Assembly (NCBI RefSeq): GCF_002571385.2
Contig: NW_019217800.1
Span: 811,137-875,136 of the forward strand
Source: Stylophora pistillata
Taxonomy: Eukaryota
Direction of reading: 5' to 3'
DNA length: 64,000 nucleotides
Positions 6,001-64,000 of the stretch are shown piece after piece; the first letter of the stretch is position 1, and each line of letters begins with the position of its first letter. A program made the position numbers.

Positions 6001-9000
6001 CTTACTCAACAGCGAAGGGTGGGAGACGAAGAATATACGAGACGAAGGGTAAGAGCGCTAAGAGCTAAAGCAATCGTCGTGTGGAAAGTTCTATCTTAAC
6101 CGTCCTCAAAAATTTAAAACTAACCCACATGCTGAAAAGTACTATTGATTCTTACTATTTGCAGGTTATTTGACGTGGCACCTCACTTGCAAGAGCTATT
6201 TCCGTTCGGCAGCGACTTAACAAATCCCATGTTTACTATGCACGCCTTGAACATCATGAACACGTTAGACCTAGCAGTACAAAACTTGGATAAACTGGAT
6301 ATACTTGTGCCTAAGCTAAGAGAACTTGGACAGATGCATGCAGCATTTGAGCTTACGGAAGTAGAATTTCAGGTAGAAGACCATTTATTTATCATTTTTC
6401 TTTACGGCACGCGAGAACACGATAAAAGCTCTACCCGTTACTTGCAGTCTCAACAATGAGAAGGTAGGAACGGTGCACTGGCCGATAAATATAGGTATGC
6501 AAAAGAGAAGAGGGGGGGGGGTAAGAAGGATGAAAGAGGGAGACGATAAAAGCTCCGCCCGTTACTTGCAGTTCCGCCCGTGGGAACGGTGCTCTGGCCT
6601 ATGAATATGGGTGTGATGCAAAAGAGAACGGGGGAGGGGAGGGATGAGAAGGGGTAAAGAGGGAGACTCTCTCCTCCTCTTCATTGTCATCATTCCAACG
6701 TTGAGGTAGTGCTAGTCTCCCACCGCAATACGGCCACACATTAAAACTAAGAGACGACTGGGGACGAGTCAGGCTTTTCACCCTTTCGCTGTGAAAGGGA
6801 GTAGAGATCGAGCCGTAATTTATAAATAGTCCTAAGTTTACAGTTGCTTAGCACCACCCCAAACAAATAAAGAAAGCCAAACCCGTGGTAAAAGGTGCGG
6901 AAACAAATCCCCCTTTTCTCTTTGTTAAAAAAATGTTCATTTCAGAAGGAGAAGCAATTTCAAACGTTGTCAAATGATGAAAACTAAAAAAAAAAGATAT
7001 TGGTACTCTCTGTTATCTCCTTCTACACCTCCCATTCTCAGTTTTGTTTCATGAAAAGTTTCCTCCCGGTGCTCTGAACATATTCCCTTACTAAGATGGT
7101 GTTGCTTTCTAAAGATTTCCTTTCCATTTTTTCTTCCCTTAAAATCTTTCTTCTTTCAGTATGTTGGTGAATCTCTCATATGGGTTCTGGAGACAGGCCT
7201 GGGAGATGACTTTACACCAAAGTTGAAGAGAGCCTGGTGTGATGCCTTTGCTATCATCTCTAGTGTTATGTTGGGTGCCATTAAAGATATTAATGGCTAG
7301 AGAGGGGCATCCACAACATCTATTCTATATAGTTCATCGTCTGTTTGCACAATAATTCTTAATAAAGACCTTTATTATTATTATTATTATTATTATTACA
7401 ACCCATTTTAGATGATTCAATGACAAATACTCAGCCTGGGAGATAACTAACAGGATTATAAGATAAGTAGTTCCAAGTCTTTAGCAAAAACAATCAGTTA
7501 CCAGACTTAACTCTTTTATGTGGACCTACAAACTCAATAAGACACCATCAACCCCTAAGCTTTGCCTAGGGGTTAGCCATAATTCAGTGTGTTTTTTCAT
7601 ACGAGGTTTCAGGAACCTGATTAAAAGACATGACTCAATCAAATTTTTTTAGTCTGTTTGTTAAAAAGAAATTGAAACAGGGCCTTGGTGTTTGGGTAAA
7701 CTAATCACTGAACCAAAGAGAAAGTAAAAAGCAGTTGAATCTTTTGTGTAAGTTGAACTGCAAACAGGAAATCATATTTTAAGTACAGGTAAATGAAGAA
7801 AAATAATACAATGGCAGTTTTGATTTTTCCTTTATACAATAGTTTTAAGAAAACAACAGAAACAAATGATTACATATATCTTATTAANATATTCCACATC
7901 ATTTTGTTTTTTAAAACAGTGTTCGTTTTTAATGCGTTATACTGTTATTCTTTTAATAACATGCTCTGTAACACTGAGCAAAAGGTGACAGAAAGGCTTC
8001 TTTAAGTTCATCTGAACAGCATAGTAAAGACATGCTATTTCAAAAATGGTGGACAAAATACAGGTATCAAAAACAACAATATACTGTTGCTCATGTGGGA
8101 TAAAAGAACCATAACATTCCTATTTACAAGTAATTTACCACTGGTTAGTTAACAATAGTGTTAGAAAGACAGCATCTGAAAAAAAGATGGAAAATATTTT
8201 ACAGATTGAAATAGTTTTACTTCTACTGAGTACATTTGTGGGGAATAAAGGAATTCAAAGCTGGTATCAATTTTTTTAGGTGTCATAATAAACAAAACTT
8301 CTCCAAGCTCAAATGCTATTTAGCTCATCTAAGACCAAAAGCTATAAGTATGTTAAGTAACAGCACCCAGCTCTTCTCTCCTTTACTAATAAGTATCACC
8401 TGCAACCACTGTCACCGTAAGTGCAAGTTGTACAAAGCTTAATTCATGGTTGCTATTTTTTCAACATATTAAGAAAGCTTTAAAATGGTATTCACAAGTC
8501 AGAATAGCCTTTGAAAAGTTCTGACCAAGAAAATGATACGTATAATGCAATCTGAATAATTTACAGAAACATTAAAAAAAAAAAGAAGTTGCCCTCTTAC
8601 CTGTGATAAACAATAATTATTTCTGTAAAATGAACTGCTCTATAAATTCATTTTGTTCACCCTCAACCTTCTGTAAAGCTTCATGCTGGACACGGAAACT
8701 ACCGTAATTGAAATATCAAACAAATCTTAATACATATTTTTTAAATAAAAGGCAGTCCATGACTGCATGTGCCTACTATTGTTTAGTTGTAAAGTACTGC
8801 AGTAAAAAAGCAATGTGGTATAAAATGCAGAGTGGTTTGTGAACAGCTCTCGTCAATACCTCAATTGTGATAAAAGAAAGACTTTGTCAGAACAGAGTTT
8901 GTACACCAGCAAATTGATAGGGCAGGGACAGGGCAGGAAATTGATAGAATAAGTTCATGAATTAAATGCATCAAATGTACTTTCTACAAAATTCTGCCCC

Positions 9001-63400: not shown

Positions 63401-64000
63401 ACACTATGACACACTGTCAAATTTTCCGCGGAAGTGCCAACATTTTCGCCGAAAAGAATTGTCAAACTTAATTTTCGTGGTCCTTTTGTTGAGGCGGCTC
63501 GCGTATCACGTTCCTTACAATACGACCCTCCGGCAGTAAATAAGCTCATTAGTACGCTCATTCTGTTCACGAGGAAAATATTGAGCTTTTTCTTGTATTT
63601 AAGTATTCATAATTAATGGTGACGCCCAATTTCCTTTTGTCAAGTGGAAAATGATACCCATCTTAGTAGCTCAGTTTCGACGCGATTGAAATGAGCTGTC
63701 AATGCCATATCCTCGCGTCGAGTGATATGGTTGTTTACTAAAGCGGCCTAACAAATCGACAAACTCTCGTCGATAATTGCAAACGTATTGCTTACTTCTC
63801 ATTTCTACCGGTAAAGTTACTGAAATGCCGCGACTTTACATTTGGATTGATCCACCTTCTAGGCAAGCAGTCCGACTGAGATGTCCCGTGGACAGTTCAA
63901 GTATCGATTTGTCTCAGGTAAGAATTTTGTTTGTTGGTGATGCATCAACTTGAACCTCTTTGCTACATCTGCAACTAAAGTGTCTACTGGCGCTCATCCA

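What the first reader, a model, noticed from the sequence alone, without database searches (positions are those of the whole stretch)
8617..63917. Possible ancient IFT20 - TNFAIP1/KCTD10/13 - BCKDK - TRAF4 linkage shared with vertebrates
Seen: IFT20 lies ~1.5 kb from the BACURD-family gene, which is head-to-head with BCKDK, and a TRAF4-like gene is within ~50 kb. Known (from memory): human IFT20 and TNFAIP1 are immediate neighbours at 17q11.2, TRAF4 is also in 17q11.2, and KCTD13 and BCKDK are both in 16p11.2. Inference: this window may preserve a pre-bilaterian block that whole-genome duplication split between paralogons. The IFT20/KCTD orientation differs (tandem here, divergent in human as I recall), so a shared bidirectional promoter would not explain retention.
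Basis: partly seen in the sequence, partly recalled or inferred. Interest (0 to 1): 0.7.

Follow-up and report, generated by a model that had tools for sequence, protein, structure and literature searches.

The report
Coral IFT20–BACURD–BCKDK–TRAF4 gene neighbourhood
A stretch of coral genome carries four ordinary genes side by side whose human counterparts sit in two related chromosome regions, which is probably a leftover of very old gene order but could not be tested in other animals here.

Summary
The window is scleractinian coral DNA. It carries IFT20 (- strand, 8617-12550) and one BACURD gene (KCTD10/KCTD13/TNFAIP1 type, - strand, 14091-18222) that ends 1,540 bp upstream of the IFT20 start codon. 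BCKDK (+ strand, verified exons 20139-28044) lies head-to-head with BACURD. A short CortBP2-like gene and two divergent TRAF paralogues follow. The window ends with the first two coding exons of a third TRAF (60284-63917).

The Pocillopora orthologue of that third TRAF scores 180 bits against human TRAF4, against 116 bits for the next human TRAFs (TRAF3/TRAF5).

No animal genome collection was available, so the microsynteny test could not be run. Among named hits, Ptychodera has IFT20 and BACURD on one 44-Mb contig, and Saccoglossus has them on different scaffolds. Gene orientation differs between coral and human.

My best reading is passive retention of an old linkage with local inversion. 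Chance adjacency within one conserved ancestral chromosome is a serious rival. No main text I searched mentions this block, and the supplementary lists of the microsynteny surveys were closed. Interest is modest.

The parts
8617..12550 (-). IFT20 orthologue with 129 codons. Coding exons are 12550-12433, 12282-12197, 9517-9414 and 8698-8620, with the stop at 8619-8617.
   Evidence: Pfam IFT20 E 1.3e-11 on exon 1. The exon 1 search gave 111 of 113 candidates at E<=0.001, and every hit that carries a descriptive name is called IFT20. tblastn with P0147 and P0155. Splice sites read.
14091..18222 (-). BACURD gene (pro-orthologue type of KCTD10/KCTD13/TNFAIP1) with 286 codons. Coding exons are 18222-18051, 16728-16472, 14990-14938 and 14469-14094, with the stop at 14093-14091.
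   Evidence: Pfam BTB_2. Nearest solved structures are KCTD10 at 86 bits and KCTD13 at 77 bits, with the next, KCTD7, at 30 bits. The C-terminal exon is 65-80% identical to proteins named BACURD2/3 or KCTD10 across animals. P0012 is covered from residue 1 to 286. Splice sites.
12551..14090 (.). Spacer of 1,540 bp between the BACURD stop and the IFT20 start codon. The two genes are in tandem on the - strand, and the spacer has no N.
   Evidence: Coordinates. N positions.
18223..20138 (.). Divergent spacer between the BACURD start codon and the first verified BCKDK exon. It should hold both promoters and the unverified BCKDK first coding exon(s).
   Evidence: The CpG scan was uninformative.
20139..28044 (+). 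BCKDK orthologue. Homology-verified ORF segments carrying exons are about 20139-20210, 21974-22141, 23113-23262, 23304-23576 and 27685-28041, with the stop at 28042-28044. Further exon-like ORFs, identified by eye only, are 22437-22520, 24099-24188 (also present as a copy at 25278-25367), 26062-26259 and 27255-27380.
   Evidence: Pfam BCDHK_Adom3 on three exons and HATPase_c on the last. The last exon scores 110 bits against BCKDK and 53 against PDK2. The exon at 20127-20216 gave 5 of 5 hits to BCKDK, best E 4.5e-5.
38845..43877 (+). TRAF paralogue 1 (RING, TRAF zinc fingers, coiled coil, MATH domain). It is not the TRAF4 orthologue.
   Evidence: Pfam RING and MATH. PDB ranking. It is 28-37% identical to coral TRAF4 P0005 and 37-39% to Nematostella P0009.
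48279..54861 (+). TRAF paralogue 2. It is 50-65% identical to paralogue 1 over three exon pairs.
   Evidence: Pfam RING, zf-TRAF and MATH. PDB rankings. Exon-pair identities.
60284..63917 (+). TRAF4 orthologue, first two coding exons only (60284-60435 and 63863-63917). The rest of the gene lies beyond the window end.
   Evidence: Exon 1 is 96% identical to Pocillopora P0005 and 84% to a protein named TRAF4-like in Actinia. Exon 2 matches P0005 residues 50-70. The TRAF domain of P0005 is closest to human TRAF4.

Best explanation
The window is a real, contiguous piece of a scleractinian coral chromosome. It carries four single, unrelated, ordinary genes: IFT20, one BACURD, BCKDK and the start of the TRAF4 orthologue. 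Three other genes lie between BCKDK and TRAF4.

The match to human 17q11.2 (IFT20, TNFAIP1, TRAF4) and 16p11.2 (KCTD13, BCKDK) most likely reflects descent from one small region of an ancestral chromosome. Under this reading the linkage was kept passively in slowly rearranging genomes. After the vertebrate genome duplications the genes were lost reciprocally: IFT20 and TRAF4 stayed beside TNFAIP1, and BCKDK stayed on the KCTD13 copy.

Flipping the BACURD gene alone turns the coral layout (IFT20<- BACURD<- ->BCKDK) into the human head-to-head IFT20/TNFAIP1 layout. Neighbourhood was therefore kept, but no shared promoter was.

Shown here: gene identities, order, distances and strands in the coral. 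Taken from papers: the human positions. Inferred: common ancestry of the linkage, and the absence of a functional constraint.
For: - Gene identities and layout.
- No N lies between the genes.
- Human IFT20/TNFAIP1 are adjacent and divergent (PMC2822537 passages).
- TNFAIP1 and TRAF4 are both in 17q11.2 (PMC7486480 passage; PMC3548333 passage).
- KCTD13 and BCKDK are both in 16p11.2 (PMC4394543).
- A second paralogue pair, TAOK1/TAOK2, sits in the same two bands (PMC8044823).
- The 16p11.2 region is rich in whole-genome-duplication paralogues: 24 in 1.5 Mb (PMC6429492 passage).
- Ptychodera flava IFT20 and BACURD lie on one 44,014,232-bp contig.
- A systematic survey reports nearly 600 deeply conserved pairs of unrelated neighbours, about half of them older than bilaterians, so such retention is common (PMC3514665 abstract and discussion passages).
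Against: - Only two lineages (coral and human) show tight linkage.
- In Saccoglossus kowalevskii, IFT20 (contig of 558,019 bp) and BACURD (contig of 434,588 bp) are on different scaffolds.
- The Ptychodera result shows only the same chromosome-scale contig, not adjacency.
- Orientation differs between coral and human.
- In human, BCKDK and KCTD13 share a band but I recall them as about 1 Mb apart, and TRAF4 as about 0.4 Mb from TNFAIP1. Neither distance comes from a call.
- TMEM97 and POLDIP2, the other human neighbours, were not found in the window (Pfam scans of 30 further ORFs).
- The TRAF4 assignment for the window itself rests on 70 codons plus an orthologue from another coral.
Confidence: 0.55

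Rival explanations
1. Coincidence inside conserved macrosynteny. The four genes belong to one ancestral linkage group that is conserved between cnidarians and vertebrates at chromosome scale. Order within such groups is scrambled, and the tight coral cluster and the human IFT20/TNFAIP1 adjacency arose independently.
For: - Saccoglossus has the two genes on different scaffolds.
- Orientation differs between coral and human.
- None of the other human flanking genes is in the window.
- The finding was picked from a scan of many windows. My own rough estimate, from recalled gene counts and not from a tool, is that a given neighbour pair ends up adjacent on a human chromosome of about 1,000 genes about 2 times in 1,000. 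Over some 10,000 coral neighbour pairs, a handful of chance matches is therefore expected genome-wide.
Against: - Here not one but three relations coincide: IFT20 next to a BACURD, TRAF4 in the same band, and BCKDK in the band of another BACURD paralogue.
- Published surveys find far more conserved pairs than shuffled genomes give. In PMC8851819, 162 new blocks arose in one ancestor against 17-25 in shuffles (passage).
Confidence: 0.3
2. Retention by regulatory constraint. The genes stay together because they share cis-regulatory elements or coordinated transcription: a bidirectional promoter for BACURD/BCKDK in coral and for IFT20/TNFAIP1 in human, or enhancers of one gene lying within a neighbour.
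For: - BACURD and BCKDK are divergent with at most 1.9 kb between coding starts.
- Human IFT20/TNFAIP1 share a bidirectional promoter and are co-expressed (PMC2822537).
- Many conserved pairs are explained this way (PMC3514665 abstract).
Against: - The promoter-sharing partner differs between the two species, so no single shared promoter has been conserved.
- None of the four is a developmental regulator of the kind that anchors regulatory blocks (established knowledge of these families).
- No expression or chromatin data could be consulted.
Confidence: 0.1
3. Assembly artefact. The linkage arises from a wrong join in the coral assembly.
For: - The window holds three single N bases.
- Two of them abut perfect tandem arrays.
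- A 298-bp stretch that includes a BCKDK exon is present on both sides of one array at 99.7% identity.
Against: - No N lies between IFT20 and BACURD, between BACURD and BCKDK, or anywhere from 24277 to the window end.
- The N bases at 16038 and 24276 are inside introns, with exons of one gene in the right order on both sides.
Confidence: 0.03

Closest known systems
Human TMEM97-IFT20-TNFAIP1-POLDIP2-TMEM199 module at 17q11.2 (Grinchuk et al. 2010, PMC2822537; abstract and passages read)
   Same: IFT20 is the immediate neighbour of a BACURD-family gene.
   Different: Human IFT20 and TNFAIP1 are head-to-head with a shared bidirectional promoter. The coral genes are in tandem, with the BACURD 3' end facing the IFT20 5' end. 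In coral, BACURD is head-to-head with BCKDK instead. TMEM97, POLDIP2 and TMEM199 were not found in the window.
Conserved ancestral microsyntenic pairs of unrelated genes (Irimia et al. 2012, PMC3514665; abstract and passages read)
   Same: Unrelated genes are tightly linked in deeply diverged animals, and the coral-human distance fits the pre-bilaterian class.
   Different: Membership needs linkage in several lineages, and only two are shown here. The main text names none of these genes (0 occurrences of 5 gene terms). The pair list is in supplements I could not open.
Microsyntenic blocks across 49 animal genomes (PMC8851819; passages read)
   Same: The same kind of object: a block shared by cnidarians and bilaterians.
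   Different: The main text names none of these genes (0 occurrences). The block lists are in closed supplements.
Vertebrate paralogous regions 17q11.2 / 16p11.2 (/ 12q24, recalled)
   Same: TNFAIP1 and TAOK1 are in 17q11.2, and KCTD13 and TAOK2 are in 16p11.2. This is as expected if one ancestral region was duplicated.
   Different: That these two bands are duplication partners is recalled knowledge plus one extra pair from a paper. It was not tested here. KCTD10 and TAOK3 at 12q24 are recalled only.

Membership tests
IFT20 | IFT20 domain spanning a protein of about 130 aa | tested here: met
   Pfam PF14931 E 1.3e-11 on exon 1. Four exons cover residues 4-133 of Montipora IFT20.
BACURD (KCTD10/KCTD13/TNFAIP1) | T1-type BTB domain closer to KCTD10/KCTD13 than to other KCTDs | tested here: met
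   KCTD10 86.2 bits and KCTD13 77.1 bits. The next best, KCTD7, scores 29.7 bits.
BACURD (KCTD10/KCTD13/TNFAIP1) | Family-specific conserved C-terminal domain | tested here: met
   The 124-aa exon found 832 proteins at E<=1e-5 among 1112 candidates. The specific names among the best 120 are BACURD3, BACURD2, BACD3 or KCTD10; the rest are generic BTB/potassium-channel-tetramerisation labels or 'hypothetical', and no other KCTD member is named.
BCKDK | Mitochondrial protein-kinase architecture: BCDHK_Adom3 N-domain plus HATPase_c | tested here: met
   PF10436 on three exons and PF02518 on the last exon.
BCKDK | Closer to BCKDK than to the pyruvate dehydrogenase kinases PDK1-4 | tested here: met
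   Last exon: BCKDK 110 bits, PDK2 53, PDK3 50, PDK4 47, PDK1 45. N-terminal exon: 5 of 5 hits are BCKDK.
TRAF4 orthologue (window's own sequence) | TRAF-C/MATH domain and zinc fingers closest to TRAF4 | not testable with these tools
   Only the RING exons (about 70 codons) lie in the window. Against solved structures the RING exon hits TRAF6 best (37.6 bits), and no TRAF4 RING chain appeared among the hits listed.
TRAF4 orthologue (by proxy, Pocillopora P0005, 96% identical over exon 1) | TRAF domain closest to TRAF4 | tested here: met
   TRAF4 chains 173-180 bits, TRAF3/5 116, TRAF2 104, TRAF1 95, TRAF6 75. An Actinia relative is named TRAF4-like by NCBI. No tree was built because no labelled vertebrate TRAF set could be fetched.
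Conserved ancestral microsyntenic pair | Close linkage in several deeply diverged lineages | tested here: inconclusive
   Coral: yes (this window). Human: yes. Of 2 named species present in both hit lists, Ptychodera has both genes on one 44-Mb contig and Saccoglossus has them on different scaffolds.
Conserved ancestral microsyntenic pair | The partners are unrelated genes, not tandem duplicates | tested here: met
   The Pfam families differ.
Paralogon split by vertebrate genome duplication | TNFAIP1/KCTD13 are duplication paralogues and their regions share further such pairs | not testable with these tools
   Only TAOK1 (17q11.2) and TAOK2 (16p11.2) were seen in a paper. The list of duplication paralogues for 16p11.2 is in a closed supplement.
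Bidirectional-promoter gene pair (coral BACURD/BCKDK) | Divergent genes with transcription starts within about 1 kb | tested here: inconclusive
   The divergent orientation is shown, with at most 1.9 kb between coding starts. Transcription starts and the BCKDK first exon are unknown.

The most novel reading that the evidence does not exclude
IFT20-BACURD-BCKDK-TRAF4 is a surviving fragment of a microsyntenic block more than 600 million years old. It was already present in the cnidarian-bilaterian ancestor and was then divided reciprocally between human 17q11.2 and 16p11.2 after the two vertebrate genome duplications. That would give a clean, datable example for reconstructing that proto-chromosomal region and for studying gene-by-gene inversion within an otherwise stable neighbourhood.
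Probability: 0.4. Interest if true: 0.45.

Novelty: new member of a known kind. Interest (0 to 1): 0.3.

Why it matters
If the block is ancestral, it adds a well-defined anchor for reconstructing the pre-duplication ancestor of human 17q11.2 and 16p11.2, two disease-relevant, gene-dense regions. It would also be a case where neighbourhood outlived promoter sharing. Deeply conserved pairs of unrelated neighbours are already known in the hundreds, so one more would not change how the field thinks. The genes themselves are ordinary orthologues.

Tried and rejected
- RING exon of the third TRAF against solved structures. The best hits are TRAF6, but no TRAF4 RING structure appeared among the hits listed, so this cannot decide orthology. 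I used the orthologue's TRAF domain instead.
- ORF 19440-19706, a candidate for the BCKDK first coding exon. It gave no Pfam family and no meaningful structure hit, so it is left unverified.
- Protein Atlas on the exon at 34723-35130. The best score was 0.87, to bacterial glucanotransferase clusters, which is below the 0.9 lead level. Rejected.
- Pfam on 30 further ORFs across the window. This turned up no additional gene and no TMEM97 or POLDIP2.
- CpG observed/expected scan for promoter-like islands. The values at the intergenic spacers are unremarkable, and I made nothing of it.
- Contig-length matching for Nematostella. The TRAF4-like protein sits on a 616,758-bp record and BACURD on a 19,319,694-bp record. 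These are different assemblies and not comparable.
- Contig-length matching for Actinia. TRAF4-like sits on a 41,429-bp contig and IFT20 on a 274,155-bp contig. The small contig could not hold both genes, so this is uninformative.
- The listing of cluster members. It did not complete because the database is switched off, so accession-order evidence could not be obtained.
- Literature searches for this block. The only paper holding both 'microsynteny' and IFT20 is about CD47/IFT57. In one search, 35 papers held at least 3 of the 6 terms, and none of the 20 listed contains 'microsynten'.
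Full report
SOURCE AND METHOD

The window is 64,000 bases at 37.6% G+C, with three single N bases at 7888, 16038 and 24276. Exon-level matches place it in a scleractinian coral:
- The first exon of the third TRAF is 96% identical to a Pocillopora damicornis protein.
- The last BACURD exon is 96% identical to a cluster named for Porites evermanni.
- IFT20 exon 1 is 97% identical to a cluster named for Montipora capricornis.

I never joined exons into a coding sequence, and no search, fold or look-up used a joined model. 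As a result, exact-sequence look-ups of the window's own full proteins were not possible. The N bases were described only, not filled.

THE GENES

IFT20
- It lies on the - strand. The start codon is at 12550 and the coding exons are 12550-12433, 12282-12197, 9517-9414 and 8698-8620. The stop at 8619-8617 is the finding's start coordinate. Splice sites were read directly.
- Pfam IFT20 matches exon 1 at E 1.3e-11.
- A Montipora IFT20 of 133 aa aligns over residues 4-133.
- The exon 1 search gave 111 proteins at E<=0.001 among 113 candidates, and all the descriptive names are IFT20.

BACURD
- It lies on the - strand. The start codon is at 18222 and the exons are 18222-18051, 16728-16472, 14990-14938 and 14469-14094, with the stop at 14093-14091. 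That makes 286 codons.
- A 286-aa coral protein (P0012) is covered from residue 1 to 286 in four pieces.
- The second exon is closest to the solved BTB domains of KCTD10 (86 bits) and KCTD13 (77 bits). The next KCTD scores 30 bits.
- The 124-aa C-terminal exon found 832 proteins at E<=1e-5 among 1112 candidates. In the best 120 the specific names are BACURD3, BACURD2, BACD3 or KCTD10; the others are generic BTB or potassium-channel-tetramerisation labels, 'hypothetical' or unnamed.

BCKDK
- It lies on the + strand. Pfam BCDHK_Adom3 matches three exons and HATPase_c matches the last.
- The last exon scores 110 bits against BCKDK structures and 45-53 bits against PDK1-4.
- The short exon at 20127-20216 hits only BCKDK chains, 5 of 5, with best E 4.5e-5.
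- The stop is at 28042-28044. The first coding exon, which should carry the mitochondrial presequence, was not verified.

LAYOUT
- The BACURD stop lies 1,540 bp upstream of the IFT20 start codon. Both genes are on the - strand, so they are in tandem.
- The BACURD start codon and the first verified BCKDK exon are 1.9 kb apart on opposite strands, so those two are head-to-head.
- No N lies in either spacer.
- The N bases at 16038 and 24276 are in introns of BACURD and BCKDK, with exons of the same gene in correct order on both sides. They do not undermine the linkage.

THE TRAFS

Three TRAF genes lie on the + strand.
- The first two (38845-43877 and 48279-54861) have RING, TRAF zinc-finger and MATH matches.
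- They are 50-65% identical to each other over three exon pairs.
- They are only 28-43% identical to the coral TRAF4 orthologue P0005, and 31-39% to Nematostella P0009.
- Their nearest human TRAF depends on the exon. For paralogue 2, the C-terminal MATH half favours TRAF4 (65 bits, against 58 for TRAF5 and 55 for TRAF3). The coiled-coil plus N-terminal MATH half favours TRAF2 (74 bits, against 60 for TRAF4).
- I treat them as non-TRAF4 paralogues of unresolved affinity.

The third TRAF starts at 60284 with a RING domain almost at the N-terminus.
- Exon 1 ends at 60435 and exon 2 is 63863-63917. The rest lies off the window, so only about 70 of about 621 codons are present.
- Its own RING exon cannot decide orthology. 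The best solved matches are TRAF6 RINGs, and no TRAF4 RING chain appeared among the hits listed.
- Its Pocillopora orthologue P0005 is 96% identical over exon 1 and continues through exon 2.
- P0005 has a TRAF domain that scores 173-180 bits against human TRAF4 chains. TRAF3 and TRAF5 score 116, TRAF2 104, TRAF1 95 and TRAF6 75.
- An Actinia relative is named TRAF4-like.
It is not met by a tree, because I could not fetch a labelled vertebrate TRAF set.

THE HUMAN SIDE

- IFT20 and TNFAIP1 are immediate neighbours at 17q11.2, divergent, with a shared bidirectional promoter. They are flanked by TMEM97 and POLDIP2 (PMC2822537).
- TNFAIP1 and TRAF4 are both listed in 17q11.2 (PMC7486480). TRAF4 is given as 17q11-q12 (PMC3548333).
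- BCKDK and KCTD13 are both listed at 16p11.2 (PMC4394543).
- TAOK1 lies in 17q11.2 and TAOK2 in 16p11.2 (PMC8044823). This is a second paralogue pair linking the two bands.
- The 16p11.2 region holds 24 whole-genome-duplication paralogues within 1.5 Mb (PMC6429492), but the list is in a closed supplement.
- The physical distances (about 0.4 Mb from TNFAIP1 to TRAF4, about 1 Mb from KCTD13 to BCKDK) and the 12q24 location of KCTD10 and TAOK3 are recalled. They come from no call.

IS THE BLOCK ANCIENT?

The decisive comparison needs animal genomes. The only genome collection open here holds bacteria and archaea.

As a substitute I compared the 'longest contig' lengths reported for named hits in the BACURD and IFT20 searches.
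- As far as the partly truncated names show, two named species occur in both lists.
- In Ptychodera flava both proteins sit on a contig of 44,014,232 bp. That means the same chromosome-scale sequence and nothing finer.
- In Saccoglossus kowalevskii, IFT20 sits on a 558,019-bp contig and BACURD on a 434,588-bp contig. They are not on one scaffold there.
- The result is 1 of 2 compatible and 1 of 2 against tight linkage. The sample is too small to decide.
- Nematostella and Actinia comparisons involving TRAF4 were uninformative, because of different assemblies and a 41-kb contig respectively.

HOW TO READ IT

Three coincidences line up: IFT20 next to a BACURD gene, TRAF4 in the same human band, and BCKDK in the band of a second BACURD paralogue. 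Surveys find hundreds of deeply conserved pairs of unrelated neighbours, far more than shuffled genomes give (PMC3514665; PMC8851819). A conserved adjacent pair is therefore more often inherited than accidental.

Against that:
- The finding was picked from a scan of many windows.
- By my own rough arithmetic on recalled gene counts, a handful of chance adjacencies is expected genome-wide.
- The orientation differs between coral and human.
- The other human flanking genes are absent from the window.
- One slowly evolving deuterostome does not show the linkage.

I favour passive retention of an ancestral neighbourhood with a single-gene inversion of BACURD (confidence 0.55). The alternatives are coincidence within a conserved linkage group (0.3), regulatory constraint (0.1) and assembly error (0.03). 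Constraint through one shared promoter is unlikely, because BACURD pairs head-to-head with BCKDK in coral but with IFT20 in human.

NOVELTY

Searches for these gene names together with synteny or microsynteny found nothing relevant.
- One search listed 22 papers, none of them about invertebrate synteny of this pair.
- One search found 1 paper, on CD47/IFT57.
- One search found 35 papers holding at least 3 of the 6 terms. None of the 20 listed contains 'microsynten'.
- The main texts of two systematic surveys do not name any of the genes. Their pair and block lists are in supplements I could not see, so the pair may already be catalogued there.

At best this is a new member of a well-known kind, and interest is modest.

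OTHER CONTENT OF THE WINDOW
- A globin gene lies at 6136-7300.
- A short coiled-coil gene lies at about 31.7-36.2 kb. One exon has only 13 relatives at E<=0.001 among 1.84 billion representatives. Its three relatives of about 260 aa all match Pfam CortBP2 above the cut-off.
- Two perfect tandem arrays each abut a single N.
- A 298-bp duplication that includes a BCKDK exon flanks one of those arrays.

Noticed in passing
window 38845-63917, + strand: Three TRAF genes lie in tandem on one strand: two divergent paralogues followed by the TRAF4 orthologue. The two paralogues are 50-65% identical to each other and 28-43% identical to the coral TRAF4 orthologue P0005. Their nearest human TRAF flips between TRAF4 and TRAF2/3 depending on the exon. 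This could be an old tandem array bearing on how TRAF families arose.
   Followed up: partly
window 31687-36181, + strand: A short coiled-coil gene. One exon (34723-35130) has only 13 relatives at E<=0.001 in 1.84 billion representatives. The exons alone hit no Pfam family, but 3 of 3 relatives of about 260 aa match Pfam CortBP2 (31-34 bits against a cut-off of 26.9). It looks like a stand-alone CortBP2 domain protein with a narrow distribution.
   Followed up: partly
window 15205-16038 and 24276-25215: Two near-perfect tandem arrays: 78 bp x 10.7 copies at 100% matches, and 53 bp x 17.7 copies at 99% matches. Each ends exactly at a single N, inside introns of BACURD and BCKDK. They look like assembly gap edges. 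The N bases were not filled.
   Followed up: partly
window 23978-24275 and 25157-25454: A 298-bp stretch at 99.7% identity is present on both sides of the 53-bp array. It includes one BCKDK exon-like ORF (24099-24188 and 25278-25367). This is either a real duplication or the same sequence assembled twice around the gap. If both copies were spliced in, part of the kinase would be repeated.
   Followed up: partly
window 6136-7300, + strand: A globin gene. Pfam Globin gives E 4.4e-10 on one exon and a weak match on a second. It lies tail-to-tail with IFT20, and the N at 7888 sits between the two genes.
   Followed up: partly
window 28840-29231 and 35262-35534: ORFs of 86-118 aa are open on both strands over the same stretch. 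One ORF from each stretch (28875-29231 and 35270-35530, both - strand) was scanned and has no Pfam family. These are probably repeat elements.
   Followed up: partly
window about 18355-18536: A long A/T-rich trinucleotide run, which reads as poly-Ile, poly-Asn or poly-Tyr depending on frame. It sits in the divergent spacer between BACURD and BCKDK.
   Followed up: no
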